DNA from: a virus
Reading direction: 5' to 3' (one strand)
DNA length: 64,000 nt
IMG/VR virus record: IMGVR_UViG_3300029448_000010
Coordinates: 19,931-83,930 of that record
Of the stretch, positions 26,913 through 54,169 are shown piece by piece (within the stretch, counting starts at the first letter, position 1; every line of letters begins with the position of its first letter). The translations under genes were made by a program, and so were the position numbers. Under the pieces are notes generated by a model. That model saw nothing but the letters and a program-made list of their open reading frames with translations, ran no database searches and had not been told where the DNA came from.

Positions 26913-27203
26913 ATGACATGGAAAAATAGTATTAAAAAAGCCAAAAAGGTTTATGTTGTCGTAAAGTTCGGAGCATATCATAATCCTAAAGACCTTAAAT
27001 TGTCTGTCTTTGATGATAGGAAAAAGGCAGAAGAGGCTTTACAAAAAGTAACTTCATACAACGAAGATGGCAGTATAGATGACGGTAGTGGAAAAAGAAC
27101 GAAAGGCGAGGCATATATTTACCAAACTTACATGAATGAAGATTTCCCAAATACACCTAGATTACTAACGCCACTCAAAGATAGACAACAGAAAAAGAAG
27201 TGA
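26913..27203 (+). CDS. Tagged hypothetical protein (MTWKNSIKK)
   Basis: First convincing plus-strand gene; N-terminal W-tag. Confidence 0.7.
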   Translation: MTWKNSIKKAKKVYVVVKFGAYHNPKDLKLSVFDDRKKAEEALQKVTSYNEDGSIDDGSGKRTKGEAYIYQTYMNEDFPNTPRLLTPLKDRQQKKK

Positions 27204-27208
27204 TTAAT

Positions 27209-27376
27209 ATGACACGCTGTAATTATTTAGAAGGCTGGTTCGATAAGGAATCTGCTAAATTAGACAAAGTTGAGAATGATTATGGTACTTGTTTAGTTAC
27301 AGGTCAAAAGAAAAAGGCTACTACTTTAACTAAGGCTCAAGCATGGGCCAAAGTATTCAGGAGGAATAAGGTATGA
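27209..27376 (+). CDS. Small hypothetical protein (55 aa)
   Basis: Not in the track; MTRCNYLEGWFD...; fills the gap and overlaps the next gene (ATGA). Confidence 0.55.
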   Translation: MTRCNYLEGWFDKESAKLDKVENDYGTCLVTGQKKKATTLTKAQAWAKVFRRNKV

Positions 27377-27885
27377 GTTGGCAAGATATAGTGAAAGTAT
27401 CAATTACAGAGGGTCTATTCAATCAGACAAAAGAAAAGATGAGAGACATAAAAGCACAGTTAAGTGGTTTAGAGAATAGTTATACGAAAACGGCTTTAGA
27501 CGAGATAGTTCATATCTATGAACAAGCAAAGAAGGCTCATAGGGAAAATAATAAAAAACTACTTGGATTTCATCTTAGAACAATGACAATAATAGGAAAA
27601 GACATATCAAACTACTTTGATGCACAAGATATAGTAAAAGGTTCAGATAATGAACGAAATATAAGTGCAGATTCTTTTAGAGAATACGGAAAGGCTTCAA
27701 AGGAAAACCCTACATCTGCAAAAGACGATATTTCAACCCGTTCTCCTGAATTACAAAAAGGCGCACGGACATATCCACAAGGTATTGAAAAGGTAGGCAA
27801 GTTATTTTCTAAAGGAAAAATCGACATGAAGAGATATACAGAACTTCGTAAAGAATTACAGGAAATATTCGGAGTGGGGGAATAG
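27373..27885 (+). CDS. Tagged hypothetical protein (MSWQDIVK)
   Basis: N-terminal tag; internal partial repeat AQDIVK. Confidence 0.7.
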   Translation: MSWQDIVKVSITEGLFNQTKEKMRDIKAQLSGLENSYTKTALDEIVHIYEQAKKAHRENNKKLLGFHLRTMTIIGKDISNYFDAQDIVKGSDNERNISADSFREYGKASKENPTSAKDDISTRSPELQKGARTYPQGIEKVGKLFSKGKIDMKRYTELRKELQEIFGVGE

Positions 27886-27886
27886 T

Positions 27887-28537
27887 ATGAGTTGGAAAAA
27901 TATACTAAAGAGAGAGAAAACACCCCTTGTCCCTGATGAAGCGATGTTTGATATTCCTACTGGGAATTTAAAAAGTCCTCCTGAAAGCAGGTATTTTGAA
28001 AATGCAAAGGTGACTTATATGGAATCTGGCCAATTTGTGTTTGATGAAATAGATAAAAGATATATAATGACTGATAAATACAAAAGAGGTGAAGTAGCGG
28101 CAGATAGAGCAACTATGGGAGAAATGGATGGAAGACAAGTTGTTTCTTTTGCCCCCCGCAGAGTGGCGAAAGATGCCTTTATTAAAGTCTTTGACCCCTA
28201 CATGGACTTTATGCAATCTTGGCATAATCTAGAAACTTTACAAGAAGCAAATAAAGAATGGGAATATCTAACCCATAGAGTTATGCTCACTGTTCACACC
28301 GCATTAAACAATTTATTCCCAACAGTGGAAGACGCATACAAGTCTAGAAAGTTAAATGGTTTCTTACATTGGAAAGGTGAATACTATCAGAATCTAATGA
28401 ATGAGAAACTACCTGATACTATGGAACAAATTAAACCAGCGAAGAAACAACCATCGAAGAAAGAGCCTCCAAAGAAAAGAGACTATATGGCTGAAAGAAG
28501 AGAAAAAATAAAGCGTCTTAGGAGGGATAGGAAATGA
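27887..28537 (+). CDS. Tagged hypothetical protein (MSWKNILK)
   Basis: N-terminal tag. Confidence 0.7.
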   Translation: MSWKNILKREKTPLVPDEAMFDIPTGNLKSPPESRYFENAKVTYMESGQFVFDEIDKRYIMTDKYKRGEVAADRATMGEMDGRQVVSFAPRRVAKDAFIKVFDPYMDFMQSWHNLETLQEANKEWEYLTHRVMLTVHTALNNLFPTVEDAYKSRKLNGFLHWKGEYYQNLMNEKLPDTMEQIKPAKKQPSKKEPPKKRDYMAERREKIKRLRRDRK

Positions 28538-28854
28538 GTTGGAAAAATATACTCAAAGACTCAAAAGCCGCTAATGAAGCACTAGAGATGGATTTCTTTA
28601 TGAATAATTTAGAAAAGGCTCTAAAGTATGAAACTCAAGATATTCGTTTTGCTGACTTTGGCACTAAACAAAAGGTGCTAGATATTGCTAAAAAAGATAA
28701 TTATAACCTACGGAATGCGGATGGAGATTATCACTTTATGACTCTTTCCGTTTCTGATTCTGAAGTAACCTTTGATGTTAAAAGAGGATTCATAGGGATG
28801 ATGGTAAGGTTTAGTTTTGAAGGCGATAAAGTCAAATTTAAAATAATTGGGTGA
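28534..28854 (+). CDS. Tagged hypothetical protein (MSWKNILK)
   Basis: N-terminal tag. Confidence 0.7.
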   Translation: MSWKNILKDSKAANEALEMDFFMNNLEKALKYETQDIRFADFGTKQKVLDIAKKDNYNLRNADGDYHFMTLSVSDSEVTFDVKRGFIGMMVRFSFEGDKVKFKIIG

Positions 28855-28859
28855 TTAAG

Positions 28860-29108
28860 ATGACATGGGAAGATATAATTAAAGTTGGGAGCCAAACATT
28901 CGACTATCGAGAAAGAGCCGGACAACAAATGGTTGCGGATAGAAAAAAACAAGAGTTGGAAAAACTACGACTTAAAACACAAAAAGAAATTAGCCAAATC
29001 TTGCGAGAAGTGCAGGAAAAACAAAAGTTGCTTGCTCAAAAGAAGAAGATACTAGAGGCAAAAGAAGTAGCAGATTTAGATGCTTTAGGTATCTCTTTAG
29101 GCAATTAG
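28860..29108 (+). CDS. Tagged coiled-coil protein (MTWEDIIK)
   Basis: Start after GGTGA SD. Confidence 0.7.
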   Translation: MTWEDIIKVGSQTFDYRERAGQQMVADRKKQELEKLRLKTQKEISQILREVQEKQKLLAQKKKILEAKEVADLDALGISLGN

Positions 29109-29116
29109 GTGATGCT

Positions 29117-29413
29117 ATGTCTTGGAAAGATTCTCTAAAGAAGTATAGAACCAATGTAAGTGGTTCAGGTATGATTCCTTTAGACCATGTACTAAAAGAC
29201 CATAGTGAATTAGGTTTGAAAATTAGAGGCCTTATGGGTGCAGTAGGTAGTCTTAGGAATAATATGCCACGAAGCGTTAGTAAAGTGATGGTTAAGTTAG
29301 ATAAAATAAAAGAAGAAATGTATAGAGTCGAACAACTTATTACTGCTATGAATGAGTCTTATTCTGCTATGGATAAAGAAGATTGGCAAAAGACAATGGA
29401 GGACTTAGAATGA
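29117..29413 (+). CDS. Tagged hypothetical protein (MSWKDSLK)
   Basis: N-terminal tag, GGTGA SD. Confidence 0.7.
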   Translation: MSWKDSLKKYRTNVSGSGMIPLDHVLKDHSELGLKIRGLMGAVGSLRNNMPRSVSKVMVKLDKIKEEMYRVEQLITAMNESYSAMDKEDWQKTMEDLE

Positions 29414-29781
29414 GTTGGTTTGATATTATTAAAATGATGACTCCTAGAGAGTTTTTACAGGCACTAAATCTAGATGGTGACATTAAAGGAAGTGTGGGTA
29501 AAGCAGGTACTAATATGTCATTACATCACGATGCTGGTTTTGTTAAAGTCAATCAATCTAAAAAAGGCCCGTACATCGTAAATGTTGATGGTGAAAGATT
29601 TACCGATTATAGTCTAAGTAAGATACTGCCTCAAGTTAAAGACCAAGTTAAAAAGTCCCAAACTTCTTATACAGATGTCTTGCTAAGAGAAGCAGGGGCG
29701 GTTAGTACGGCCACCCCTAGTATTATTAATGTAAGATATTCTAAGAAAAAGGAGGATGAGAAGGATGCCGTCACAGAGTAA
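29410..29781 (+). CDS. Tagged hypothetical protein (MSWFDIIK)
   Basis: Likely start 29410 (ATGA overlap, GGAGG SD). Confidence 0.7.
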   Translation: MSWFDIIKMMTPREFLQALNLDGDIKGSVGKAGTNMSLHHDAGFVKVNQSKKGPYIVNVDGERFTDYSLSKILPQVKDQVKKSQTSYTDVLLREAGAVSTATPSIINVRYSKKKEDEKDAVTE

Positions 29782-30892: not shown

Positions 30893-30896
30893 TTAA

Positions 30897-31241
30897 ATGA
30901 ATTGGGAAAATATATTGAAGAAAGATATTAATTGGTTAGATGCGTTTCATAAATTCGGATTTAATGATGGAGAAAACTATACCGGACAAACAGAAGCAAT
31001 TGCTGGCTTTTTAGGAACGAAAGGATATTTGTCACATGTAACTAAATCAGGAGGTCATAATACTTTCATTAGAGCAATATATAAAACAACAATTGCCGAA
31101 GGATATGATAAAGAAAAGGTATATCCTCTTGATAGTGAAGAGTCCCGTAGTGGGGCAAGGGAAGATTTTGCACCTGAATTATTGAAATTATTAGATGACA
31201 GATATGGCAAATCAACAAAATCCGAAGGCATTACGAGTTGA
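30897..31241 (+). CDS. Tagged hypothetical protein (MNWENILK)
   Basis: N-terminal tag. Confidence 0.7.
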   Translation: MNWENILKKDINWLDAFHKFGFNDGENYTGQTEAIAGFLGTKGYLSHVTKSGGHNTFIRAIYKTTIAEGYDKEKVYPLDSEESRSGAREDFAPELLKLLDDRYGKSTKSEGITS

Positions 31242-31246
31242 TTAAA

Positions 31247-31507
31247 ATGAGTTGGGAAAATATTGTAAAACGCAGTAATTCTGATGAACTCGATAAGGTA
31301 TTAGACATGTATTCAGGACTAAAATTTATTGTAAATGATACTTATGCTGATATGATACCTTTTGTTTCTTTATTACAAAATGGTTCTTTAGAAGAGGCAA
31401 ATGATGAATGGAAAAAGATGCAGGGTAACATTAAGGATTTAGAAGGTTCACTGAGAGGCATGCAAGAAGTTAATGATTTTATTACTAAATTGTTAGGTGA
31501 TGCTTAA
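31247..31507 (+). CDS. Tagged coiled-coil protein (MSWENIVK)
   Basis: N-terminal tag. Confidence 0.7.
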   Translation: MSWENIVKRSNSDELDKVLDMYSGLKFIVNDTYADMIPFVSLLQNGSLEEANDEWKKMQGNIKDLEGSLRGMQEVNDFITKLLGDA

Positions 31508-32163
31508 TGATTACTCGCAAACGATGTGCCGTCTGTCAGCATGATGATAGAGAAGAATTAGAAGCCGCTTTAGAAGGCGCATTTATTTCCTGTGATGATT
31601 TAGATAATAGAGAAGGCTGGAGAAGCGGTACTTCTGCAAAGCATCTTAGAAATCACATGGGGGATTATACTAACAGTAGTAATCCTAAATGTAAATTGTG
31701 TGTTGACCCAATGAGGAAACATTACGAGGAAGCATTATCCGATGGTAATATCACTGCTGAAGGCGTTTCTCTAGCACTTGATGTTACTAAGGAACAGGTA
31801 CAGCGACACATGAAGCACCACTTAGCACCTTTGGTTCAACAATCTGCCGCCAACATTATAGCGAAAAAGGAAGTAAATGAAATCGAACTACTAAGTACTA
31901 ACATACAAAGGTTAGATGATAAGTTAGATGAGTTATTCAGGAATACAGAATTAGAACCTAGAGAGATAGATAGCCTAACTAAACTTGCTAAAGAAGTTAG
32001 AGAGAGTCTAAAGTATCTTATGGAGTTTAAGGGCAAACTTATTCACAAGAGACAAGACACAATTATTGTCGCACAAATGCAAGTTGTTCAAGAAGTCCTT
32101 GCACAAAACAATCCTGAGATATGGCTTGAGATTAAAAAGAAAATGCAGGAGAAATTACAATGA
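31507..32163 (+). CDS. Putative terminase small subunit / Zn-HTH DNA-binding protein
   Basis: Two CxxC...HxxxH HTH-like repeats followed by a coiled coil; untagged; upstream of terL. Confidence 0.5.
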   Translation: MITRKRCAVCQHDDREELEAALEGAFISCDDLDNREGWRSGTSAKHLRNHMGDYTNSSNPKCKLCVDPMRKHYEEALSDGNITAEGVSLALDVTKEQVQRHMKHHLAPLVQQSAANIIAKKEVNEIELLSTNIQRLDDKLDELFRNTELEPREIDSLTKLAKEVRESLKYLMEFKGKLIHKRQDTIIVAQMQVVQEVLAQNNPEIWLEIKKKMQEKLQ

Positions 32164-32396
32164 GTTGGTTTGATATATTGAAACAAGAATCGGTAAAAGC
32201 ATTGGTTGAAGATGCTTTAGATTTGCATAGTAGGGGTCGTGATTTTTACAAAGAAACTTATACAAAAGAAGATATTAAGCAAATGATGGACTTTTTCAAA
32301 AAGGAAAATAAAAGAGATAGGCTAGACCAATTTGATACGGACTATAATAGTAAAGCAATAAGACTACTAGAAAAAGCATTGGAGGAATTACAATGA
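32160..32396 (+). CDS. Tagged hypothetical protein (MSWFDILK)
   Basis: N-terminal tag. Confidence 0.7.
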   Translation: MSWFDILKQESVKALVEDALDLHSRGRDFYKETYTKEDIKQMMDFFKKENKRDRLDQFDTDYNSKAIRLLEKALEELQ

Positions 32397-32779
32397 GTTG
32401 GAAAGATATAATTAAAGCACCATTTGATGCACCTAGAAGAAGTAGGGCATTCAGGGCTAGAAGTAAGGCTGAAGAAGAAATAAGTGCAACAAAACCTAAA
32501 GAGGATTTATCCACTGACATTTCTGCTTTTGCTTCTAAGATTATTGACCCTCAGATGGAAAGATACGGTAGGGCTTTTGTGGATATAACAAAAAATAAAG
32601 ATTGGAAAGAATTTTCTGAATTATTGGATAAATACAAAGGTAAGGATAGACTAGCGAATGAACTCGGTAAATTATACAATACCAAAGTGTTCATTACCCA
32701 TAGGCCGTCTAAAGGCGACCCTAGAGATGAAGACTATGTTATTGATATTGGAGCAAACCACGAAGAAAGAGGTGCTTAA
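32393..32779 (+). CDS. Tagged hypothetical protein (MSWKDIIK)
   Basis: N-terminal tag. Confidence 0.7.
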   Translation: MSWKDIIKAPFDAPRRSRAFRARSKAEEEISATKPKEDLSTDISAFASKIIDPQMERYGRAFVDITKNKDWKEFSELLDKYKGKDRLANELGKLYNTKVFITHRPSKGDPRDEDYVIDIGANHEERGA

Positions 32780-32781
32780 TA

Positions 32782-33204
32782 ATGAGTTGGAAAGAAACAC
32801 TAAAAGCCCACTGCGGCACAGAGGAAAAATTAGAAGACGATGACCCATTTGAAAAACTAGTCGGTAATCAAGATGAAATAGATGCTGACGGTGATGGTAA
32901 AATAACAGGAAATGATTTTAAGATTCTAGGAAGAAAGTCTAAACTAAAGAAAGCAAGAGACATGAAGCAAGTCCCTCTATCTAATGGCAAGACCTATCCA
33001 CAGAATATTAGAATATTTGAAGCCACTTTGAAAAAAGAAGGTGGTGCGGCTGGTATTAAGAATTTAGTTGATGCAAGTAAACTATCAAAAAAAGAAGTGA
33101 AGGCTGTTCTTGATATAATGAAGAACATAAGGATTCACAAGTATGGAGACATTATTCTAATGGATGGATTACCTAAAGGAAAAGGGAGAGGGTTCACTGC
33201 ATGA
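32782..33204 (+). CDS. Tagged protein with EF-hand-like loop (MSWKETLK)
   Basis: IDADGDGKITGNDF = DxDxDG Ca-binding loop. Confidence 0.65.
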   Translation: MSWKETLKAHCGTEEKLEDDDPFEKLVGNQDEIDADGDGKITGNDFKILGRKSKLKKARDMKQVPLSNGKTYPQNIRIFEATLKKEGGAAGIKNLVDASKLSKKEVKAVLDIMKNIRIHKYGDIILMDGLPKGKGRGFTA

Positions 33205-33464: not shown

Positions 33465-33468
33465 TAAC

Positions 33469-33870
33469 ATGGATTGGCATATTATTCTAAAGAAACTTGT
33501 GTGTCCTACGGCAACACAAGACCTGAAACTCAACACTAAAAATAGAGATAGGGCAATAAAAGAAAAACATATTCAATATGGCCCTCTCAATCTAAACGAT
33601 GAAAAGTATTGGGAAGAATATGCTAAGAAGTGGAATACTACTGCTGATGTGGCTAAGGAATCTAATTGTAGTAATTGTGTTGCATTTGACATATCTCCAA
33701 GAATGGATGACTGTATGCCACTAAATACAGACGAAGATGGCCGACTAGGTTATTGTTGGATGCACGATTTCAAATGCCATTCTGTGAGAACTTGTTATAC
33801 TTGGGCTAAAGGAGGCCCAATTGATGACGATAAGGCTTCTAAAGAAAATCAAATGAGAGGCCGCAGGTGA
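33469..33870 (+). CDS. Tagged Cys-rich protein, HiPIP-like metal-binding pattern (MDWHIILK)
   Basis: CSNCVAF...GYC...CYTW. Confidence 0.6.
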   Translation: MDWHIILKKLVCPTATQDLKLNTKNRDRAIKEKHIQYGPLNLNDEKYWEEYAKKWNTTADVAKESNCSNCVAFDISPRMDDCMPLNTDEDGRLGYCWMHDFKCHSVRTCYTWAKGGPIDDDKASKENQMRGRR

Positions 33871-33874
33871 TTGA

Positions 33875-38641: not shown

Positions 38642-39121
38642 ATGGGTTGGTTTGAGATATTAAAAAGAACAGAAATTGTTCCCGAAGAATCTCTTGAGCA
38701 TTTAGAAGAGTTTGTTTTAGCAGAAGAGAAAGGCTATCCTTCTGTATTGCACCCTCTAAAAATAGTCGCTGAGTTTGATGATGATACAAACGATTTGAAG
38801 GCTTATACTTCTTTTAGAGATTTTGGTAAATTCTTTTTTGTAGGTAATAGTTATTCTTTTGTTAGGGGCGGCGGTTTTTACAAGAAAGTTCTAAACTTTA
38901 GAGACAAGTTTTTAGGTTCTTCTAAACCTAAGATTGCTTTACTTAATGTTAAAGAGTCCACTCAAATAGACAGAATGACTTCTTTAGTTGAAGGTAGGGG
39001 AGGCATTAAGATAGAAGAATATTCACAAGTGGATGATGTTATGGATGAATCTATGTATAACGAATTTAAGAAATTACCTATGTTTAGATACCCGCCATTA
39101 AAAGAAGGTGAAGAAGAATGA
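38642..39121 (+). CDS. Tagged protein, possible GNAT-fold acetyltransferase (MGWFEILK)
   Basis: FVGNSYSFVRGGGFYKKVL resembles the acetyl-CoA binding R-G-x-G motif A. Confidence 0.45.
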   Translation: MGWFEILKRTEIVPEESLEHLEEFVLAEEKGYPSVLHPLKIVAEFDDDTNDLKAYTSFRDFGKFFFVGNSYSFVRGGGFYKKVLNFRDKFLGSSKPKIALLNVKESTQIDRMTSLVEGRGGIKIEEYSQVDDVMDESMYNEFKKLPMFRYPPLKEGEEE

Positions 39122-42334: not shown

Positions 42335-42528
42335 GTTGGGAAGAAGTATTGAAAAAGAAATCCACTGTCAATTCAGCAGGTAATTACACTAAACCTAAAC
42401 TTCGTAAAAAAATCTTTAACCGAATTAAAGCAGGTAATAAGGGCGGTGCATCCGGTCAATGGTCTGCTAGAAAAGCACAGATGGTTGCCGCCGCCTACAA
42501 AAAAGCAGGTGGTGGTTATCGTGATTAA
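42331..42528 (+). CDS. Tagged small basic protein (MSWEEVLK)
   Basis: YTKP.LR...GG..GQWSARKAQ...YKKAGGGY, a motif widespread in viral proteins. Confidence 0.7.
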   Translation: MSWEEVLKKKSTVNSAGNYTKPKLRKKIFNRIKAGNKGGASGQWSARKAQMVAAAYKKAGGGYRD

Positions 42529-42793
42529 TTGGCGTGATGTTCTCAAAGCCAAAGCAGAAACTCAACAGGCTTTAACCACTTGGACTGACGAAGAATGGGG
42601 AAGTCAAAAACAACACAAAGCGAAAGCAAAGGGTAAAACCCCCCCTTCTAAAGCAAAAGGAAGATATATGCCTAAAAGTAAATTTCAAGGAACAGGACAA
42701 GGAAGATTAGACTATCAAGACAAAAAGAAAGAAGAAGGAACTGAACAAGGAAAACAACATGTTCCAACAGGAAAGAAGTTCAAGCAGGTGTGA
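42521..42793 (+). CDS. Tagged small basic protein (MINWRDVLK)
   Basis: Likely GTG start at 42521; Q.AL..WT.EEW...RYMP...GKQHV. Often the C-terminal partner of the previous motif (from recall). Confidence 0.6.
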   Translation: MINWRDVLKAKAETQQALTTWTDEEWGSQKQHKAKAKGKTPPSKAKGRYMPKSKFQGTGQGRLDYQDKKKEEGTEQGKQHVPTGKKFKQV

Positions 42794-42795
42794 TT

Positions 42796-43146
42796 ATGTG
42801 GGAAGATATTCTGAAAAAGAAACCTAAAAGTGCTAGGTCAAGAGCCTTAGAGAGAGCCAAAAAGAAAGGGCTTAAAGGATTAAATAGACCACAGCGATTA
42901 AAAGACAGTTCAGGAAAATCACATCATGTAATGGCCTTTGAAGGTAAAAAAGCCAAGTACATTAAATTCGGTCAAGCAGGTGTAAAAACAAATCAAACTG
43001 CCGGACAACGAAAAGCATTCAAATCTAGACACGCAAAGAACATAAAGCGTGGTAAAATGTCTGCCGCTTATTGGGCTGATAAGGTAAAGTGGAGTCCAAA
43101 GAAAACCAAAGAAAAGAAGAATAAGAAATGGCGGAAGGGTAGTTGA
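42796..43146 (+). CDS. Tagged small basic protein (MWEDILK)
   Basis: IKFGQ.G...RKAFKSRH...SAAYWA..VKW, a motif common in phage proteins. Confidence 0.7.
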   Translation: MWEDILKKKPKSARSRALERAKKKGLKGLNRPQRLKDSSGKSHHVMAFEGKKAKYIKFGQAGVKTNQTAGQRKAFKSRHAKNIKRGKMSAAYWADKVKWSPKKTKEKKNKKWRKGS

Positions 43147-43614
43147 ATGTGGAAAGACATATTAAAGGCTGATTTTGTGGTAAAAACCAATTGGCCTGAA
43201 GCGGATTTTTGGCTACAAAAAAGAGGTTCTGAACAGAATGTCGGAAAGCCTATGAGAAAGTTTAGCAAGGTTCAAGGTCAATATAACATAGGAATTAAAG
43301 TACCGAAAGGAATGAATAAAGAATATGTATATGCACAATTAGCGGCACTATTTAGAAAAGGATATTGGCAAACACATTCTTACGGTACTATTAATTTACA
43401 GCATATTAGAGTCGATGATGTAAAGAAGATACTACAATCTTTTGAAAATAAAGAAGACTACACAGATGCTACATCAGATAAGATAGAAAAAATATATGAT
43501 AAGTGGCTAAATGATTCTAAGTTGATAAGTCAATTACTTATGTCAAGTAACTCTCTAATTAGAGAAGGTCGGGAAATTAAAAGGTTCTTAGGGAAAATGG
43601 AGGACATGAGATGA
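43147..43614 (+). CDS. Tagged hypothetical protein (MWKDILK)
   Basis: ADFWLQKRGSEQNVGKP domain after the tag. Confidence 0.7.
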   Translation: MWKDILKADFVVKTNWPEADFWLQKRGSEQNVGKPMRKFSKVQGQYNIGIKVPKGMNKEYVYAQLAALFRKGYWQTHSYGTINLQHIRVDDVKKILQSFENKEDYTDATSDKIEKIYDKWLNDSKLISQLLMSSNSLIREGREIKRFLGKMEDMR

Positions 43615-43764: not shown

Positions 43765-45405
43765 ATGGCTGAAAAGAAGAGGCGATTCTCGTTTACTAAT
43801 TTGTTTAGGCGTTCAACTCCTAAACCTGCGGATAGGCAGATATTCAACATGGGTATTCAGGAAAGACAGAATAACTACATGATGACGGCTCCTATTATTT
43901 ATTCTATGGTTCAACAATCAGTTATTGTTAGGACTTGTATTACTCAATTAAAACAAGAGGTTTATAGAAGAGGTTATGTTTGGGAAAAAGCATTTGATTC
44001 TATTTGTAAACAATGCGGTAAAAAACACCAAAGACCTGTATCTGAATGTTCTAGATGCAAAAGCACTGATTTGAAAAAGCCAGATGTAAAGCAATTAGAG
44101 TATGCAGAAAAGTTTTTAGAAGGATATGTTAATCCTTCTGAACAATTATTTATTGATGTTCTGAAAGAATTAGAAGATGATTTGAATACAATGGATGATG
44201 CCTACATTGTCTTAGTTAAAGAATATTTCCTAGACGGTAATGGTAAAATAAGAATGCACCGCATAAAAGAAATCTTTAGAGGCGACCCTGTTACCATGTT
44301 TATTTATGCAGACGAAGAAGGTGTAAAGGGTACAAAAGGATTCACATGTATTAACCATAGAACAGTATTAGATACTGAACCGCACCACACTTGCGAAGAA
44401 TGTAATGGTAAACTATATCCTGTTCATTATGTTAATAGGGCGAATGGAGAAGACCAATACTTCTTAGAAGGCGAGGTACTACACTTTAGTAAATATAGCC
44501 CTAGTAGGCTGTACGGTTTCTCTCCTGTAATTACATTATACAATCATATCATGACTCTAATTGCTATGGAGAATTATGTTAATTCAGCCTATACTAAGAG
44601 CAGAATGCCTAGAGGATTATTGGCAGTACAGACTCGTAACATGGATTCAATGAGAGCCTTTTGGCGTGGTGTAAAAGAGAAGATGGAATCAGACCCTCAC
44701 TTTATTCCTGTTATGGGTGTTGAATCAGATGGTGGCGGTAAAGGTGCTGTTGAATGGATTAAGTTTATGGATAGTCTAAAAGAAATGGATTACATGTCCG
44801 TAAAGGATGATTTAAGAGATAGGATTTCGGCATTCTATGGAGTAAGTAAAGTATTCATGGCAGACAATACCACTAGTGGTGGGTTGAATAATGAAGGTAT
44901 GCAGATTCTTGTTACTAATCGTGCAGTGCAAATGGCACAGAATGTGTATAATAATTATGTATTCCCGTATTTAATCAAGCAATTTGGTATTACTGATTGG
45001 GTTCTAAAACTACCTCCATCAGAAGAAGAAGATGAAATTTCAGAACTTCGTAAAAGAGAATTAGAAGTTAGTATTGCGGCAGCAATTAAAAATCTAGGAT
45101 TTGAAGTTGAGATGGATGAAGACGGTCAATTTACTTATGAAAAACCTAAACCTATGGAGTCACAAGAAGGAGAAGAAGGGCAAAAAGGAAGTAAAGACCC
45201 CTTAGCAGGTTCTAATTTAGACCAAAGAGATTTAGACGAAAGTATGCGAGTAATGGCAGAAGGCGGAAGTAAGCCACAAGAAAATCCAGCGACAACTAGA
45301 AATAAGCCTAGTGTTGAGACAGGGCCAGATAAGCGTCTAACCGGATTACCTGAAGATGCCGGAAATCAGAATGTTGATTCAAGAACAGAAAGAAGAGTTG
45401 GTTGA
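43765..45405 (+). CDS. Portal protein
   Basis: LYGFSP, PRGLL, RISAFYGV portal motifs; two Zn-ribbon insertions; position after terL. Confidence 0.9.
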   Translation: MAEKKRRFSFTNLFRRSTPKPADRQIFNMGIQERQNNYMMTAPIIYSMVQQSVIVRTCITQLKQEVYRRGYVWEKAFDSICKQCGKKHQRPVSECSRCKSTDLKKPDVKQLEYAEKFLEGYVNPSEQLFIDVLKELEDDLNTMDDAYIVLVKEYFLDGNGKIRMHRIKEIFRGDPVTMFIYADEEGVKGTKGFTCINHRTVLDTEPHHTCEECNGKLYPVHYVNRANGEDQYFLEGEVLHFSKYSPSRLYGFSPVITLYNHIMTLIAMENYVNSAYTKSRMPRGLLAVQTRNMDSMRAFWRGVKEKMESDPHFIPVMGVESDGGGKGAVEWIKFMDSLKEMDYMSVKDDLRDRISAFYGVSKVFMADNTTSGGLNNEGMQILVTNRAVQMAQNVYNNYVFPYLIKQFGITDWVLKLPPSEEEDEISELRKRELEVSIAAAIKNLGFEVEMDEDGQFTYEKPKPMESQEGEEGQKGSKDPLAGSNLDQRDLDESMRVMAEGGSKPQENPATTRNKPSVETGPDKRLTGLPEDAGNQNVDSRTERRVG

Positions 45406-45406
45406 T

Positions 45407-45835
45407 ATGGATTGGAAATCTATTATTAAAAAAGCAAGGACTATGGCGGATTTAAGCGATAGCGATAAATCAACCCTTGAAAAAGAAAAAGAAAGGTATA
45501 ATAGAACCATAGAAGATGACCCAACAGAATATGATTCATTTGAAGAAATCGTAAACTTTTATTTATCTGAAGGAAAATCAATTCCTCAAATCGTGGAAAG
45601 TTTAGATGACGAATATAATGAATGGTTCACTTCTTCTGATGGGGAAAAATGGGCTAAATCTAAGGGTGGAATGACTCATAGAGAATATTATGATGTAGTG
45701 GATGACATGCTTGGAGAGGATAGCGACCATTTTACCGAGGATTATGACCTTAGCGAAGAAGCACTGGAAAGGCGGTCTGAAAGAAGTGCAGATGCTTATT
45801 TCTCAGGCGGCGGATATAATATGGGTGATGACTAA
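45407..45835 (+). CDS. Tagged acidic protein (MDWKSIIK)
   Basis: Likely start 45407, directly after the portal stop. Confidence 0.7.
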   Translation: MDWKSIIKKARTMADLSDSDKSTLEKEKERYNRTIEDDPTEYDSFEEIVNFYLSEGKSIPQIVESLDDEYNEWFTSSDGEKWAKSKGGMTHREYYDVVDDMLGEDSDHFTEDYDLSEEALERRSERSADAYFSGGGYNMGDD

Positions 45836-46062: not shown

Positions 46063-46071
46063 TGTGATTAT

Positions 46072-49000
46072 ATGTTATGGGAAGCAGTGCTAGTAGGGCG
46101 TGAAAACGACCCTTCTTTTTTATTGAAGGCATTGGTTAATGACATAGAAAAGAGATACAAAGGAAATAATCCGTATCTAGATAATGAAGGTAAGGCCATT
46201 GATGAAGTAAAGGCTAAGGAATGGGAGAAAACACCAACTGTTCAAAGTCTAAATTCGATAGAGATTTTAGATAAAATACCTACGATTGGTAATAACTCTT
46301 TAAGGGATGCTTTCATATCAGCAGGAATGTATGCTATTAGTGAGAAAAATCTATTTAATAGAAGCAATACATTTAAGGTATTTTATGAAGCACAAAGAAA
46401 AAAAATACAAGATTATTATAAAAAACTTATTAGTAATCAAAAGAAACAAAAGTATTCTTTATCTGAATTAAATAAAGAATGGATAAAAGATAATAGATAT
46501 TGGAATCCTAAAGATAAATCAATAGATGAGTCTAAAAAGAAAATATTTCATGATTTAGGAATATCAACCGAAGGAACTTTCACAGGATATGACAGACCAA
46601 TAGAAGGCTTTGAAGATAAATTTTTTGGGAGTAAGGAAAGCCTAGAACCCGAACTAAAGAAACTTAAAGAGCGATTAGAAAAAGAAGAGAAAAAAACTGA
46701 AAAGGATTTCGATAATATAAACTTTAATTGGCAAACTAAAGAGGATGCCATTAAACAGAATAAAAAGTCTATTGAGTATCTAAAAGAAGAAATAGAATTA
46801 ACAGAAGGAAGAATCGCAGAAGGTAAAAGAAATCAATTAAGTAATAAACAATTATTTTCTATGTATGGAGGAAAGGCTAAGTTCCAAAAGAAAATAAATG
46901 ATAGTTATGTTTCTGCTATTAAACTATTAGAACAAGAAGATTTAAGATTGTTTGATGAGAACTATAAGAAAATGCAAACTAAAATAGATAAGGATATATC
47001 TAATGCAATTAAAAACACAAAGCCATCTCCCGATATGAAAGATACTATTACCTTTGAAGAAGTATATAGTAATATAGAAGGTCAAAGTGAATTAACTGCA
47101 CTAAAAGACCTTCTTGATAATAAAGAAATGAAACAGTATTTAAACCTTCTATCAGATAAATACACTCTTCCTAAGAAATGGGATGATATGTCCGATAAGG
47201 AACAAAATACTTGGGAGTTAGATAATAAAAGAAAGTTTCAAACTAATTACCAAAGACTATTAAAAACCTTATATGCTCTTAAAAATAAATATTCTGCTGA
47301 TGCTCCTACTTCAAATAAGATTGCAAAAGTTGAAGCGGTCATAAAAACTCTTAATGATAGATTTAACATGAAGTCATGGAAACCGGCCAGAAAAGAAGCA
47401 GAAGAAATGAAAAGAGAAAGCGGCACATCTTTGAGAAGAGATTCTAAAGAGTCTGACTTTGGCCCTAATAAATTAAAAAAACCAAGACCTAAAAAATGGA
47501 AATCAATGTCATTTAAAGAACAGCAAGAATGGTATTCAAAAAACACAAGTAAAAATCCTAGAAGAAAAGCCGCAGAAGAATCTGAAATGCAGAATATATA
47601 TGAAGTGGTATTTGGCGACAAAGAACCTTTAGATAAAATAGGTAAGAATAAAAAAATAAAAGCACTATTACCTAGTAAAGAAGTTGATGTTACGAAACCC
47701 ACTAGGGAAATGTGGGGTAATCTATTAACTAAACTAGAAGCGTTTGGTAAATCTAAAAACCCCGAAAGTCAATTTAACAAGTTAATCTTGTCTAATGAAT
47801 TATATCTTATTGATGTAATTAACTTAGTACAGACTAAAAGAAATAATGTATATCCTAAATACATGAAATTAACGAGTAAAAAGTTTGTATTTCAGAAACC
47901 TCCCAAAAAGAAAAAAGATGTTTCCATAGGGGGAACTAAGACTAGTCAATTATCCCCAACAGTAGGACTTTTTGATAAACTTGAGGGTCAAATGACTTCT
48001 GCACAAAGAAAAAAGTATCATAGTTTTATAGAAACAATCTTAGATAAAATCCCAAAAAAATATATTAGTGTAGTTAAAAATAAAAAGGGAGAAGACGAAG
48101 AAAGAATAGATTATGAAAAATTAACCGCCCCTAAAGGTGAAGGGGGAATGGGTTCTGCGGGTCAGAAAATATCAGATGAATTAGAAACAGAAATGAGTCT
48201 TGCTGGTAAAGGACATAAATATTTACAAGGCTTGGAAAAGAAAATTAAATCCAAAAAATATAAAGGTCTTGAAGATGGAGAAACTGAAGAATTTGAACCC
48301 ACGGGAAATAAAGACCCAAGAACAGAAAGTCAACGAGCGTGGGATAAAAAGTACTTCCGTAAAGCCGAGGTTGGTAGCAATAAAGCGGCTATGAAAGCAA
48401 GAGAAAAAAAATATGCAGAAATGTATAAGAAAGCAACTATGGCTAACTTTACTAAGTTAAAAGAAGATATAGATAAAGTTAAGCCCGATGAGTTAGATAA
48501 GTATTTCAATAAAACAAAAAGTGTTATGGATGCTGATTTATTCCATTGGATTGATAAAACTAACAAAGGAATAAGCATGAGGATTATTCCTTATGGAGAA
48601 GGAGATAAAGATTACTCCACCATTAGAAAAGATGTTCTTGATATAATGAAAATATTAGATAAAGATATGGAATACGAAGGTTCTGAAATGAAAGTATTAG
48701 ATGTTCTTAATATTCTCGGAAGAAAGGTGTATAAAAAGAAAGCAGGTTCTATTGTTTCAGCCAAGAAAAAAGAGGTTTCTGCTAAATTAAAAACCATAGG
48801 TGAAGAAGCAGTTAGAGCAGTTATGGATAAAGATAGTAAAGATTTCAAGATACCTAGATTGCTTAAATTAAAATTAAAGCAAAACAATCTTAAACTTAAA
48901 AAAGAGTTTTATAATATATTTACTGTTACACCGACCCCTGATAAAACGACAAAGGTTGAGGCTATGAGAATAGTTGAAGGTACTGAAGAATTATTAAATC

Positions 49001-49374
49001 AATTAACCCCAACAGAAGAAAAACTGTTAGTTATTTGGGAAAAGGTTTCTGATTCTTTAAAAGCCACTCCTGAGCAAAAAGAGGCAAGAGAAAGACAAAG
49101 AGTAGTCATGGATAAAGAAGAATTACGGGCTATTAATGAGTTATTAGAAGCGTATGAAGATGCAATATATGATATTGACGAAAAACTTGACCCTCTTGCT
49201 AATGAATTAATTGAAGTTCAAAAAGCAGTTGAAGAGTTAGGATTTGGCGAAAGAGAAGTTGAACACACAAAGCGGCTGATGAAGAAACAGGCGGATTATT
49301 TGAAAACAGTTACGAAAAAATATAACGAAATAAGGCGTTATGCTGTGGAATTAAAAAATAAAATAGGTGAATAA
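46072..49374 (+). CDS. Large Lys/Glu-rich coiled-coil protein
   Basis: 1100 aa; internal repeats PKKWDDMS.KEQ and PKKWKSMS.KEQ. Confidence 0.7.
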   Translation: MLWEAVLVGRENDPSFLLKALVNDIEKRYKGNNPYLDNEGKAIDEVKAKEWEKTPTVQSLNSIEILDKIPTIGNNSLRDAFISAGMYAISEKNLFNRSNTFKVFYEAQRKKIQDYYKKLISNQKKQKYSLSELNKEWIKDNRYWNPKDKSIDESKKKIFHDLGISTEGTFTGYDRPIEGFEDKFFGSKESLEPELKKLKERLEKEEKKTEKDFDNINFNWQTKEDAIKQNKKSIEYLKEEIELTEGRIAEGKRNQLSNKQLFSMYGGKAKFQKKINDSYVSAIKLLEQEDLRLFDENYKKMQTKIDKDISNAIKNTKPSPDMKDTITFEEVYSNIEGQSELTALKDLLDNKEMKQYLNLLSDKYTLPKKWDDMSDKEQNTWELDNKRKFQTNYQRLLKTLYALKNKYSADAPTSNKIAKVEAVIKTLNDRFNMKSWKPARKEAEEMKRESGTSLRRDSKESDFGPNKLKKPRPKKWKSMSFKEQQEWYSKNTSKNPRRKAAEESEMQNIYEVVFGDKEPLDKIGKNKKIKALLPSKEVDVTKPTREMWGNLLTKLEAFGKSKNPESQFNKLILSNELYLIDVINLVQTKRNNVYPKYMKLTSKKFVFQKPPKKKKDVSIGGTKTSQLSPTVGLFDKLEGQMTSAQRKKYHSFIETILDKIPKKYISVVKNKKGEDEERIDYEKLTAPKGEGGMGSAGQKISDELETEMSLAGKGHKYLQGLEKKIKSKKYKGLEDGETEEFEPTGNKDPRTESQRAWDKKYFRKAEVGSNKAAMKAREKKYAEMYKKATMANFTKLKEDIDKVKPDELDKYFNKTKSVMDADLFHWIDKTNKGISMRIIPYGEGDKDYSTIRKDVLDIMKILDKDMEYEGSEMKVLDVLNILGRKVYKKKAGSIVSAKKKEVSAKLKTIGEEAVRAVMDKDSKDFKIPRLLKLKLKQNNLKLKKEFYNIFTVTPTPDKTTKVEAMRIVEGTEELLNQLTPTEEKLLVIWEKVSDSLKATPEQKEARERQRVVMDKEELRAINELLEAYEDAIYDIDEKLDPLANELIEVQKAVEELGFGEREVEHTKRLMKKQADYLKTVTKKYNEIRRYAVELKNKIGE

Positions 49375-49741
49375 CATGACATGGGATTACTACGACAACA
49401 AAGAAGAATTTATTCTTAAAGCAAAAAAATCACCTGAAAAAACTATTCTTAATAGTTTAGATAAGAAGCAGACTAAGAAGTTGAAGAAGACACTGCAAGC
49501 GGCAGAACCTACTGAATTTTTTGGTCAAGACTTTACTAAGATGGGTGACTTAATTGATGTGCTTAAAGATTTAGACCTTACAAAGTCAGATAAAAAACTA
49601 AATAAGCGCATGAAGAGTATGGATGAGCGCAACCTTGACATAGTGGCAACCGCTACCAAACTCCGTAAGGACTACGAAACCTTGTACCGGCAATTACGGG
49701 AAATGGTTTATCCAAAGAAAAAAGGTGAAAAAGATGAGTGA
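49367..49741 (+). CDS. Hypothetical head-module protein
   Basis: 124 aa; ILKA and LTKS sites. Confidence 0.65.
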   Translation: MNNMTWDYYDNKEEFILKAKKSPEKTILNSLDKKQTKKLKKTLQAAEPTEFFGQDFTKMGDLIDVLKDLDLTKSDKKLNKRMKSMDERNLDIVATATKLRKDYETLYRQLREMVYPKKKGEKDE

Positions 49742-49970
49742 AAGTGAAGATGTATTGGCTATTCTAAAAGCCTTAACCGAAAAAATTGAACAGTTAGAAA
49801 AAACAGTCTATCATCAAGATAACCTTTTGATGAAGTCAGGTTTTGTAGTAGCAACAAGTCCAAGTCCAAAAATGAATAATTCAGTAGCCGCAACTTCGGG
49901 TATTGGAGATGTTTCTAATATGGAATGGTCTGATATTCATAAGATGGTCGAAAAGATAGGTGGTCAATAA
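49734..49970 (+). CDS. Small scaffold-like protein
   Basis: Coiled coil plus C-terminal MEWSDIHKMV, nearly identical to the protease/scaffold C-terminus. Confidence 0.65.
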   Translation: MSESEDVLAILKALTEKIEQLEKTVYHQDNLLMKSGFVVATSPSPKMNNSVAATSGIGDVSNMEWSDIHKMVEKIGGQ

Positions 49971-52896: not shown

Positions 52897-52906
52897 TGAG
52901 CCGATT

Positions 52907-52917
52907 CTTTAATATAG
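52907..52917 (+). promoter_or_regulatory. Probable late TATA promoter
   Basis: CTTTAATATAG about 30 nt upstream of the protease ATG (52946), in a rare intergenic gap. Confidence 0.45.
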
Positions 52918-52936
52918 TCATTAAAATTACAAGGGG

Positions 52937-54169
52937 TTGAAGACTATGAGCATTAGTGTCATGGCATCTAGGAATAATGATTTCAGGATTCTTAAAAGTG
53001 ATGAATTAATGATTGGTGGTTATGCAAGCATCGAAGTTGTGGATAAACAAAACGATTTAATTACACTAGAAGCATTAAATACCGCAGTTAAAAAGTTTAT
53101 GGATGATAAGAAATTCAGAAATGTAATGACAAATCATTCTAATGTTCAAGTTGGTGAAGTAATAGACTCTTATCGAGATAAAAGTGGAAAACTATGGAAA
53201 TCAGAAGTTGATGATGTAGGATTTTTTGTAGTAATAAAGTTAAGAGATGATATAGAAAAAGCCAAAGAAGTTGGAAGAGGTATTCGTAAAGGAACATTAA
53301 GGTCTTTTAGTATCGGTGGACAAGCATTACAAAAGGTAAAGAAAAGTCACGGTGAATTAGGCGAATACAACGAAATTAGTAAATTAGAACTCCATGAGGT
53401 AACAATCTGTGAAAAAGGAATTAACCCCGAAGCAAAGTTTGATATTTTAAAAAGAGATAAAGGAGATGAAAAAATGAGTGATAAACTTGAGAAAGCATTG
53501 AATGAGTTGGATATACTTCTAAAAGAAGTTGAAGAACTTAAGGGCGACGAAGAGGAAATGGCTGAATACGCTGAATCCGAATCTGATGAAAACATGGAAA
53601 TGGCAGATGAAGAAGAAATGGCAGATGAAGAAGAAATGGCAGATGAAGAAGAGATGATGGGTGGAACACACCCTGCTTACAAGGATGGTGCAGAAAAAGC
53701 ATATCTTCGTACTCTTGATGGCGCAGGTAATCAAATTGGAGAACCAGCAGACCGTATTGTAATTAACAATGGTAAGCCTACTGCAACCGATATGCCGGTA
53801 GTTAAGGCATTTAACAACGGAGAGTTTGATACTCTAAACCTTTCTAATTCTAACATTGAAAAGGCATACGAAGCATTCCGTCAAGAACAACTTGAAGCAC
53901 TTGCATACGACAACCTACGAAAGTCTTTTGAAACTCGTTTTGAGTCTGAAAAGGCAAACCGTGAGAATGTTCTAGCAAAGTCTCAATATGACGCACAGGC
54001 TGAAATTGCTTCCATGAAGCAAGAGTTTAGCGACCTACGCAAGTCTCTTACTGCTGAAAAAGAAACTATTCTAAAGGCACAAGAAGAGTCAGTAATTAAA
54101 ATGCCAAGCATTGAAGAGATTTCATCAATGGATTGGTCAGATATTCACAAGATGGTGAACAACAGATAA
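52937..54169 (+). CDS. Prohead protease fused to scaffold
   Basis: IGGYAS..VVDKQND, NH, SFSIGG, ELHEVT...GINPEA (HK97-type protease); acidic coiled-coil C-terminal half. Confidence 0.9.
   Translation: MKTMSISVMASRNNDFRILKSDELMIGGYASIEVVDKQNDLITLEALNTAVKKFMDDKKFRNVMTNHSNVQVGEVIDSYRDKSGKLWKSEVDDVGFFVVIKLRDDIEKAKEVGRGIRKGTLRSFSIGGQALQKVKKSHGELGEYNEISKLELHEVTICEKGINPEAKFDILKRDKGDEKMSDKLEKALNELDILLKEVEELKGDEEEMAEYAESESDENMEMADEEEMADEEEMADEEEMMGGTHPAYKDGAEKAYLRTLDGAGNQIGEPADRIVINNGKPTATDMPVVKAFNNGEFDTLNLSNSNIEKAYEAFRQEQLEALAYDNLRKSFETRFESEKANRENVLAKSQYDAQAEIASMKQEFSDLRKSLTAEKETILKAQEESVIKMPSIEEISSMDWSDIHKMVNNR
53600..53653 (+). repeat. 18-bp tandem repeat x3 (MADEEE)
   Basis: ATGGCAGATGAAGAAGA(A/G) x3 in the scaffold linker. 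Confidence 0.9.

What the first reader, a model, noticed from the sequence alone, without database searches (positions are those of the whole stretch)
26913..54169. Shared N-terminal peptide on ~21 unrelated proteins copies the scaffold C-terminus: candidate capsid cargo-loading system
Seen: ORFs at 26913, 27373, 27887, 28534, 28860, 29117, 29410, 30897, 31247, 32160, 32393, 32782, 33201, 33469, 38642, 39118, 42331, 42521, 42796, 43147 and 45407 begin M-(S/T/N/D/G)-W-x-x-(I/V/S/T)-(L/I/V)-K. After the Lys they are unrelated (EF-hand, HiPIP-like, GNAT-like, coiled-coil and basic domains). Codons vary while W, the hydrophobic pair and K are kept, so selection acts on the peptide. The protease/scaffold ends in MDWSDIHKMV (54128-54157), the same W-x-x-I-x-K pattern. 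Terminase, portal, capsid and the minus-strand early genes lack the tag. Known: scaffolds bind coat protein through C-terminal helices (P22, herpesviruses); T4 internal proteins use a cleaved ~10-aa N-terminal capsid-targeting sequence; encapsulins (HK97 fold) use cargo-loading peptides. Inference: the tag docks on the procapsid's scaffold-binding site and loads a large, exchangeable set of proteins into the head for delivery to the host.
Basis: partly seen in the sequence, partly recalled or inferred. Interest (0 to 1): 0.92.

Follow-up and report, generated by a model that had tools for sequence, protein, structure and literature searches.

The report
Shared leader peptide on archaeal-virus proteins
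Twenty-one otherwise unrelated small genes on the head-building arm of this ocean archaeal virus start with the same eight-residue peptide, which resembles the tail of the virus's capsid scaffold; it is most likely a clip-off address label that loads a fast-changing set of proteins into the capsid, but packaging has not been shown.

Summary
Twenty-one plus-strand ORFs (26913-45835) begin M-(S/T/N/D/G)-W-x-x-(I/V)-(L/I/V)-K. Their bodies are unrelated, and 18 of 21 have a Shine-Dalgarno-like site upstream. Selection acts on the peptide: at the L/I position, related genes differ by 1054 synonymous against 345 non-synonymous codon changes.

The S78 protease/scaffold and a conserved 81-aa protein both end in M(D/E)WSDIHKMV. 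This tail is an old, conserved C-terminal helix of this protease-scaffold family. With a tag profile built from relatives, the two tails are the best true internal matches in the proteome, although shuffled proteomes reach that score in 3% of trials.

Tags are not plain copies of the tail. They never have His at position 7 and nearly always have Lys at position 8. A sister lineage keeps the tail but has no tags.

Relatives carry about 200 unrelated tagged families. Cellular genomes show no tag clusters.

Best reading (about 0.5): a capsid-targeting leader like the phage T4 capsid targeting sequence (CTS), perhaps cut after Lys by the prohead protease.

The scan noted the same motif earlier in another magrovirus genome (e1-5848946).

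The parts
26913..27203 (+). tagged ORF, 96 aa, MTWKNSIK
27373..27885 (+). tagged ORF, 170 aa, MSWQDIVK
27887..28537 (+). tagged ORF, 216 aa, MSWKNILK
28534..28854 (+). tagged ORF, 106 aa, MSWKNILK
28860..29108 (+). tagged ORF, 82 aa, MTWEDIIK
29117..29413 (+). tagged ORF, 98 aa, MSWKDSLK
29410..29781 (+). tagged ORF, 123 aa, MSWFDIIK
30897..31241 (+). tagged ORF, 114 aa, MNWENILK
31247..31507 (+). tagged ORF, 86 aa, MSWENIVK
32160..32396 (+). tagged ORF, 78 aa, MSWFDILK
32393..32779 (+). tagged ORF, 128 aa, MSWKDIIK
32782..33204 (+). tagged ORF, 140 aa, MSWKETLK; sub-threshold EF-hand loop
33201..33464 (+). tagged ORF, 87 aa, MSWENIIK
33469..33870 (+). tagged ORF, 133 aa, Cys-rich, MDWHIILK; 29 tagged relatives in the loci
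38642..39121 (+). tagged ORF, 159 aa, MGWFEILK
39118..39534 (+). tagged ORF, 138 aa, MNWFDVLK, directly upstream of the terminase
42331..42528 (+). tagged ORF, 65 aa, very basic, MSWEEVLK
42521..42793 (+). tagged ORF, 90 aa, basic, GTG start, M-I-N-W-R-D-V-L-K
42796..43146 (+). tagged ORF, 116 aa, basic, MWEDILK
43147..43614 (+). tagged ORF, 155 aa, MWKDILK. The DUF6943-like body starts after the tag. Homologues of 57-99% identity keep the tag pattern while its free positions change
45407..45835 (+). tagged ORF, 142 aa, acidic, MDWKSIIK, directly after the portal
52937..54169 (+). S78 prohead protease (residues 22-174) fused to a scaffold region. The likely true start is the ATG at 52946
54128..54157 (+). 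scaffold C-terminal tail MDWSDIHKMV; predicted helix 400-409; W400 invariant; M398 and H404 near-invariant
49725..49970 (+). 81-aa protein with a coiled-coil N-terminus and the same tail (MEWSDIHKMV at 49920-49949). A small tail-bearing protein of this kind is present in lineages A, B and C
53438..53452 (+). FDILK at the end of the protease domain (F168, I170, K172 invariant), in a low-pLDDT linker. Candidate self-cleavage site (inference)
54171..55514 (+). HK97-fold major capsid protein (MCP). The likely true start is the ATG at 54180
54255..54263 (+). LLK (K31 invariant, L29/L30 near-invariant) in the MCP N-terminal region, followed by an indel-prone stretch. Candidate maturation cut (inference)
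46072..49374 (+). 1100-aa protein starting MLWEAVLV...FLLK19 (MSWKAVLS...FLLK in one relative). Degenerate tag with Lys displaced
39539..40969 (+). large terminase, untagged
43765..45405 (+). portal, untagged

Best explanation
The eight-residue leader M-(S/T/N)-W-x-(D/N/E)-(I/V)-(L/I)-K is a portable capsid-targeting sequence of a magrovirus-like archaeal head-tailed virus.

Its first six residues (M-S-W-x-D-I) imitate the amphipathic helix that ends the protease/scaffold protein and a second small head protein. The tag would therefore carry its protein to the site that holds the scaffold tail inside the assembling procapsid. That site is most likely the inner face or N-arm of the capsid protein.

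The last residues, (I/L)-(L/I)-K, may be a cut site for the encapsidated S78 prohead protease, so the leader would be clipped off after loading. The cargo would stay in the head and enter the host with the DNA.

The cargo set is large: 21 genes here and about 200 unrelated families among close relatives. It turns over fast, as expected for host-takeover or counter-defence proteins.

Shown: the motif, its restriction to true N-termini on the head arm, peptide-level selection, modularity, and likeness to a conserved scaffold tail.

Inferred: binding site, cleavage, packaging and delivery.
For: 1. Twenty-one true N-termini carry the tag, 18 of them with SD sites, and their bodies are unrelated.

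2. Selection is on the peptide. Within families the L/I position shows 1054 synonymous against 345 non-synonymous codon differences, while flanking positions are about 80% non-synonymous. In the DUF6943 family the pattern is kept while the free positions change.

3. Portability. In 80 relatives' loci there are 609 tagged ORFs in 198 body families, of 40-811 aa. W3 and K8 are the only invariant columns, and there is no conservation after K8. K8 and W3 were required by the search pattern, but an unforced count gives K8 in 80% of lineage A and 94% of lineage B starts.

4. The tail M(S/D/T)-W-x-(D/E)-(I/V)-H is conserved at the C-terminus of S78 protease-scaffold fusions down to about 35-40% identity. 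It is also conserved on a second small protein in three lineages.

5. A tag profile built without the window ranks the two tails first and second among 22,898 true internal positions (11.8 and 6.5 bits; the next is 4.2).

6. The tail is predicted to be helical.

7. Precedent. HK97 proheads contain about 60 protease copies (PMC12749128, citing Duda et al. 2013). T4 and P1 use N-terminal capsid-targeting sequences (PMC9024508).

8. (I/L)(L)K recurs at conserved sites: MCP K31, protease-end FDILK172 in a disordered linker, and FLLK19 of the 1100-aa protein.

9. The tag is virus-specific. Cellular genomes (596 Gb) give 36 scattered single hits with no clusters, against at least 119 stretches in IMG/VR.
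Against: - There is no direct evidence of binding, cleavage or presence in virions.
- Tag and tail differ consistently at positions 7-8 (L/I-K against H-x). They may not share one site.
- Genome-wide, shuffled proteomes reach the tail's score in 3% of trials, so the likeness is suggestive, not overwhelming.
- Lineage C keeps the tail and the small tail protein but has no tags in four 88-100% complete genomes. The tail system therefore does not require tags.
- The tag is N-terminal whereas the tail is C-terminal.
- [IL][IL]K is a common tripeptide in this K/L/I-rich proteome (my estimate from composition, roughly one per 350 residues). The cleavage idea therefore rests only on conservation.
- One tagged family matches PAP2, usually a membrane enzyme.
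- Twenty-one different cargo species is far more than in any studied phage.
Confidence: 0.5

Rival explanations
1. The leader is a common handle for another hub, not the capsid interior. Candidates are the portal/terminase complex, a host factor, or a viral assembly compartment. Its likeness to the scaffold tail would then be partial convergence on an amphipathic W-x-x-I-L helix.
For: Tag and tail differ at positions 7-8. Lineage C has tails but no tags. Shuffles reach the tail's score in 3% of trials. Tagged genes are simply the variable accessory genes of the arm.
Against: The best internal matches to the tag profile fall exactly on the two conserved C-terminal tails. M, S/D, W, an acidic residue and I/V are shared in register, including the Met. 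No other hub is indicated by any result.
Confidence: 0.17
2. The leader is a recognition or processing signal for a non-capsid enzyme system of the virus. One example is the Ubl/E1/JAMM module on the minus strand, with the invariant Lys as acceptor or the leader as a removable pro-peptide. It would control the activity or lifetime of accessory proteins in the cell.
For: Lys 8 is nearly invariant. D/E is the commonest residue class two positions after the Lys (73 of 198 families). A homologue of the JAMM protein (6673-7158) is present in the tag-bearing lineage B genome and was not found in four tag-less lineage C genomes.
Against: The co-occurrence rests on two related lineages against one, so it is confounded by phylogeny. 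In the window only 4 of 21 tags have D/E two positions after the Lys. This rival does not explain the likeness to the scaffold tail or the restriction to the head arm.
Confidence: 0.08
3. The leader acts during translation or gene shuffling. It could be a nascent-peptide or 5'-codon module that boosts initiation. Alternatively it could be a short shared sequence at which cassettes recombine, the peptide itself having no partner.
For: Ser2 is AGT in 10 of 11 cases against a 24% background, and position 2 is nearly always RRT. Homology between relatives often breaks at tagged gene starts: 170 of 413 right-hand HSP ends lie within 20 nt of a tag, against about 11 expected.
Against: Synonymous sites in the tag drift freely. 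Codons differ in 76% of within-family pairs at the L/I position, yet the residue class is kept. Untagged core-gene starts show equally many homology breaks. The AGT bias is explained by shared descent, since AGY and TCN Ser codons are two steps apart. A conserved Trp and a hydrophobic pair are not expected of a codon-level signal.
Confidence: 0.08
4. The leader recruits the virus-encoded group II chaperonin (thermosome, 3893-5428) to fold the accessory proteins.
For: The virus encodes a Cpn60/TCP-1 chaperonin.
Against: The complete tag-bearing lineage B genome has no chaperonin match. Two tag-less lineage C genomes have weak matches.
Confidence: 0.02

Closest known systems
Phage T4 capsid targeting sequence (CTS) of internal proteins IPI-III and Alt (Mullaney and Black 1996, as summarised in PMC9024508)
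   Same: A short N-terminal peptide shared by unrelated proteins. The T4 CTS is portable to foreign proteins. Here the tag is proposed to be removed by the prohead protease after loading, with the cargo delivered alongside the DNA.
   Different: No sequence likeness. T4 uses a different protease family and a separate scaffolding core. T4 has a handful of CTS proteins, whereas this virus has 21 per genome and about 200 families in its relatives. The host is an archaeon. Here nothing has been shown experimentally.
HK97-type prohead protease / scaffold C-terminal tail that brings the protein into the prohead (Duda, Oh and Hendrix 2013, cited in PMC12749128; the paper itself was not readable here)
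   Same: The S78 protease is encapsidated. A conserved C-terminal segment is the presumed capsid-binding element, and the tail here belongs to this protease family.
   Different: The tags are N-terminal, sit on unrelated proteins, and differ from the tail at positions 7-8.
Phage P1 DarB N-terminal packaging signal (PMC9024508)
   Same: An N-terminal signal sufficient for head incorporation of an anti-restriction cargo.
   Different: P1 Dar proteins share no consensus leader. Here one consensus is shared by all cargo candidates.
Encapsulin cargo-loading peptides
   Same: A short peptide addresses diverse cargo to the interior of an HK97-fold shell.
   Different: Encapsulins have no portal, terminase or protease. 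Their peptides are mostly C-terminal and unrelated in sequence, and their cargo is enzymatic rather than delivered to a host.
Staphylococcal phage 80alpha capsid and scaffold N-terminal leaders, which share a motif with ribosomal protein L27 and are removed by the host protease Prp (from my own knowledge)
   Same: A shared, cleaved N-terminal leader on several head proteins.
   Different: That system has only two viral proteins, uses a host protease, has a different motif, and does not address cargo.

Membership tests
T4-type capsid targeting sequence (functional class) | Short N-terminal peptide shared by otherwise unrelated proteins of one virus | tested here: met
   21 ORFs share the peptide and their bodies are unrelated. 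Relatives carry 198 tagged families.
T4-type capsid targeting sequence (functional class) | Leader ends at a prohead-protease cleavage site | tested here: inconclusive
   The tag ends in (I/L)(L/I)K. Similar conserved sites are MCP LLK31 and protease-end FDILK172. The specificity of this protease is unknown.
T4-type capsid targeting sequence (functional class) | Tagged proteins are present inside virions | not testable with these tools
   The virus is uncultured and no proteome is to hand.
T4-type capsid targeting sequence (functional class) | Tag is sufficient to load a foreign protein | not testable with these tools
   This needs an experiment.
T4-type capsid targeting sequence (homology) | Sequence or machinery homologous to the T4 CTS, T4 prohead protease and T4 scaffolding core | tested here: not met
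   The protease is Pfam Peptidase_S78 (HK97 type) fused to the scaffold. This is an analogue, not a homologue.
S78 protease/scaffold C-terminal capsid-binding tail | Conserved helix at the extreme C-terminus of the protease/scaffold | tested here: met
   This holds for the tail only: W400 invariant, M398 and H404 near-invariant, helix 400-409.
S78 protease/scaffold C-terminal capsid-binding tail | The N-terminal tags match the tail motif in full | tested here: not met
   Tags lack the near-invariant His7 and carry a Lys8 that tails do not require.
S78 protease/scaffold C-terminal capsid-binding tail | Tail (and tag) bind the capsid protein | not testable with these tools
The MCP model was too poor to use (pLDDT 51).
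Encapsulin cargo-loading system | HK97-fold shell without portal or terminase, with cargo genes next to the shell gene | tested here: not met
   Terminase, portal and prohead protease are all present.
Magroviruses (viruses of Poseidoniales) | About 90-100 kb genome with archaeal-type replication genes, a thermosome and an HK97-type head module | tested here: met
   Relatives are 93-97 kb. Thermosome, ATP-dependent ligase, TFIIB ribbon, RNR and UvrD helicase are present. The MCP is nearest to those of haloarchaeal tailed viruses. A relative's protease is labelled Euryarchaeota archaeon. The features are as described in PMC5434244. No direct comparison with a named magrovirus record was possible.

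The most novel reading that the evidence does not exclude
Marine archaeal head-tailed viruses (magrovirus lineages A and B) run a universal 'address label' system. An eight-residue leader, derived from the scaffold's own capsid-binding tail and joined to a protease cut site, loads a hypervariable arsenal into the capsid for injection with the DNA. The arsenal is tens of proteins per genome and hundreds of families per population. Functionally this is a virion-borne effector repertoire with a shared delivery signal, comparable to the signal-tagged effectors of secretion systems, and on a scale not seen in any phage.
Probability: 0.4. Interest if true: 0.85.

Novelty: new variant of a known kind. 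Interest (0 to 1): 0.72.

Why it matters
If the leader is a capsid-loading tag, these abundant ocean viruses deliver dozens of ready-made proteins into Marine Group II archaea. That would be a large pool of host-takeover or counter-defence effectors, none of which has a known family.

It would be the first capsid-targeting signal in an archaeal virus, and by far the largest cargo repertoire behind one signal.

It would also show how such a signal can arise, from the scaffold's own tail with its Met reused as a start codon.

An eight-residue natural tag that loads arbitrary proteins into an HK97-fold shell is directly testable in heterologous expression. It would also be useful for protein encapsulation.

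The tag gives a simple sequence rule for finding virion-delivered proteins in metagenomes of an uncultured virus-host system.

Tried and rejected
I reached divergent lineages through the search for related loci instead.
- The AF2 model of the MCP was too poor (mean pLDDT 51), so no fold search was made.
- A PDB sequence search with the MCP profile gave only a weak hit, 6j3q (E = 0.003).
- No RNA holder was listed for window 38601-48600.
- Duda et al. 2013 (PMC3709472) is not held.
- Nucleotide-level signal: rejected on the synonymous drift inside the tag.
- Host-derived signal: rejected, because cellular genomes give only chance-level single hits.
- Chaperonin handle: disfavoured by the distribution of the thermosome gene.
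- Depletion of membrane proteins among tagged ORFs: no discrimination, because untagged neighbours also lack TM segments (0 of 391 against 1 of 435).
- Recombination breakpoints at tags: these are real, but untagged core-gene starts show the same, so they only mark tagged genes as the variable cassettes.
- Function of the cargo. Pfam and PHROGs on 148 family representatives gave almost nothing: single hits to PAP2, pentapeptide repeat, DUF6943 and an HTH. The ESM Atlas gave only virus-only hypothetical clusters.
- HVTV-1, the nearest cultured MCP relative. Its protease ends differently and its MCP has a long N-terminal extension, so it is not a usable model. Only a 13-kb stretch was examined.
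- No paper in the library links 'capsid targeting' with archaeal viruses. Two of the magrovirus papers (PMC5434244, PMC11706807) do not mention an N-terminal motif.
Full report
**Context**

The window is the right-hand 64 kb of an 83.9-kb viral contig.

- The minus-strand arm carries an ATP-dependent DNA ligase, a group II chaperonin, a TFIIB-like protein, a ribonucleotide reductase and a UvrD helicase.
- The plus-strand arm carries the terminase (39539-40969), the portal (43765-45405), an S78 prohead protease fused to a scaffold region (52937-54169) and an HK97-fold MCP (54171-55514).
- The MCP is 25-27% identical to those of the haloarchaeal tailed viruses HVTV-1 and HCTV.
- Close relatives in IMG/VR are 93-97 kb.
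- These features fit the magroviruses of Marine Group II archaea (PMC5434244).

- A six-frame regex finds 29 hits. Twenty-one are at plus-strand ORF starts, at the coordinates given. Two are C-terminal copies.
- Eighteen of the 21 starts have an SD-like site upstream, against 15% of random positions. These are therefore real N-termini.
- After the Lys the proteins share nothing (best BLASTP E = 0.004).
- Pfam finds almost nothing in them.
- No tag occurs on core head genes, on minus-strand genes or in the remaining 20 kb of the contig.

**Selection is on the peptide, not the DNA**

- In the window the L/I/V position uses eight codons, and Lys uses AAA and AAG at background proportions.
- Among related tagged genes in 80 relatives' loci, codons at the L/I position differ in 76% of pairs. 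These are 1054 synonymous against 345 non-synonymous differences, whereas flanking positions are about 80% non-synonymous.
- The DUF6943-like family shows the same thing: MWKDILK, MWRDLLK, MSWIDLLK, MSWQSILK and MSWFSIIK sit on bodies 57-99% identical.
- The one nucleotide oddity is Ser2, which is AGT in 10 of 11 cases. Common descent of the tags explains this best.

**The tag is portable and the cargo set is hypervariable**

- Within 10 kb of the terminase, 80 relatives carry 609 tagged ORFs in 198 body families. Of these, 122 are singletons, and sizes run from 40 to 811 aa.
- In an alignment of 148 family representatives, only W3 and K8 are invariant and M1 is near-invariant. Conservation stops sharply after K8.
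- Without forcing positions 6-8, K8 is present in 80% (lineage A) and 94% (lineage B) of all M-x-W starts. His is not seen at position 7.
- Nearly all families are orphans in Pfam and PHROGs.
- Homology between relatives breaks at tagged genes, and equally at core-gene starts. Tagged genes are thus the variable cassettes between conserved core genes.
- The strict tag pattern gives only 36 scattered single hits in 596 Gb of cellular genomes, but at least 119 stretches in IMG/VR.

**The scaffold tail**

- The protease/scaffold ends in ...PSIEEISSMDWSDIHKMVNNR. The tail is nearly invariant in 120 close homologues.
- It is recognisable as M-(S/D/T)-W-x-(D/E)-(I/V)-(H/N/E)-x-(L/M) in representatives down to about 35-40% identity.
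- In a 37-sequence alignment W400 is invariant, and M398, H404 and P390 are near-invariant.
- AF2 predicts a helix at residues 400-409.
- A second protein (81 aa here, 49725-49970) ends in the same tail. A small tail-bearing protein of this kind exists in all three lineages examined.
- A profile built only from relatives' N-terminal tags ranks the two tails first and second among 22,898 true internal positions of the proteome (11.8 and 6.5 bits; the next is 4.2).
- Shuffled proteomes reach 11.8 bits somewhere in 3% of trials. The match is notable mainly because it falls on the conserved tail.

**Limits of the mimicry**

- Tails keep His at position 7 and vary at position 8. Tags keep L/I/V at 7 and Lys at 8.
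- Lineage B (protease 58% identical) has tags, about a dozen in a complete 101.5-kb genome.
- Lineage C (39% identical) keeps both tail proteins, but four 88-100% complete genomes have no match to the tag pattern.
- Tags are therefore a lineage-specific addition to an older tail system.

**A possible cleavage step (inference)**

- The tag ends in (I/L)(L/I)K.
- The MCP N-terminal region has an invariant K31 after near-invariant L29 and L30, followed by an indel-prone stretch.
- The protease domain ends in FDILK, with F168, I170 and K172 invariant, inside a segment that AF2 leaves disordered.
- The 1100-aa protein starts MLWEAVLV...FLLK19 (MSWKAVLS...FLLK in one relative).
- This suggests a composite leader: a tail-like targeting half followed by a protease site, as in the T4 CTS. 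However, [IL][IL]K is frequent in this proteome, and the specificity of the protease is unknown.
- I recall from memory that HK97 gp5 is cut after Lys103. I could not verify this here.

**Rivals**

- A chaperonin handle is disfavoured by gene distribution.
- A link to the viral Ubl/JAMM module stays possible but weak. A JAMM homologue co-occurs with tags in lineage B and was not found in lineage C. That contrast is confounded by phylogeny.
- A codon-level or recombination signal is contradicted by the free synonymous drift.
- A handle for some other hub cannot be excluded.

**What could not be done**

- The MCP model was unusable.
- No RNA run is listed.
- No proteome is available.

**Prior work**

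No paper in the library describes this motif. That is not independent evidence.

**Verdict**

- The capsid-loading interpretation is the best supported, at about 0.5, but it is unproven.
- It is a new variant of a known kind (capsid-targeting sequences): in an archaeal virus, and at unprecedented scale.

Noticed in passing
window 49725-49970: An 81-aa protein with a coiled-coil N-terminus carries the same C-terminal tail as the scaffold (MEWSDIHKMV). A small tail-bearing protein of 77-142 aa is conserved in all three virus lineages. It may be a second scaffold-like or head-assembly protein.
   Followed up: partly
window 46072-49374: The 1100-aa protein has no Pfam match. It starts with a degenerate tag (MLWEAVLV; MSWKAVLS in one relative) and has a conserved FLLK eleven residues later, as if the targeting half and the Lys site were separated.
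   Followed up: partly
window 860-2398 (-) and 50359-52896 (+): There are two ATP-dependent DNA ligase genes. One is a canonical N-M-C ligase on the replication arm. The other is an 845-aa protein with a ligase core, sitting inside the head module just upstream of the protease.
   Followed up: no
window 54264-54320 (MCP residues 32-50): Lineages A and B, which have tags, carry a conserved insertion of about 17 residues (…G-V-V-G-G-F-G-T-P-H-D…) directly after the MCP LLK31 motif. Tag-less lineage C lacks it. This could relate to tag docking, but it is confounded by phylogeny.
   Followed up: partly
window 6673-7158 (-) and 3893-5428 (-): A homologue of the 6673-7158 protein (JAMM-like according to an earlier scan note) is present in the tag-bearing lineage B genome and was not found in four lineage C genomes. 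The thermosome shows the reverse pattern.
   Followed up: partly
L239-L240 (G004:C1, about 99,400-100,800, minus strand): In a tag-less lineage C genome, one 479-aa open frame holds two internal tag-like modules 77 residues apart: M-A-Y-A-W-S-D-I-L-K and M-V-Y-A-W-S-E-L-L-K.
   Followed up: no
window 40979-42334: A 451-aa ORF lies between the terminase and the tagged genes. It has no Pfam hit, but contains a stretch (…AAFIDSDGYI…) that recalls a LAGLIDADG homing-endonuclease motif.
   Followed up: no
window 26913-45413 (second codon of the tags): Ser at tag position 2 is AGT in 10 of 11 cases (background 24%). The other residues at that position are mostly one step away (AAT, GAT, GGT). This suggests that all tags descend from one ancestral copy.
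   Followed up: partly
loci L001-L080, 6-8 kb upstream of the terminase: Relatives carry tagged proteins of 550-811 aa with no Pfam match. They sit where the window has untagged 702-aa and 885-aa proteins. One tagged 463-aa protein (L024:3351-4742) matches only the C-terminal half of the window's 885-aa protein (28% identity).
   Followed up: partly
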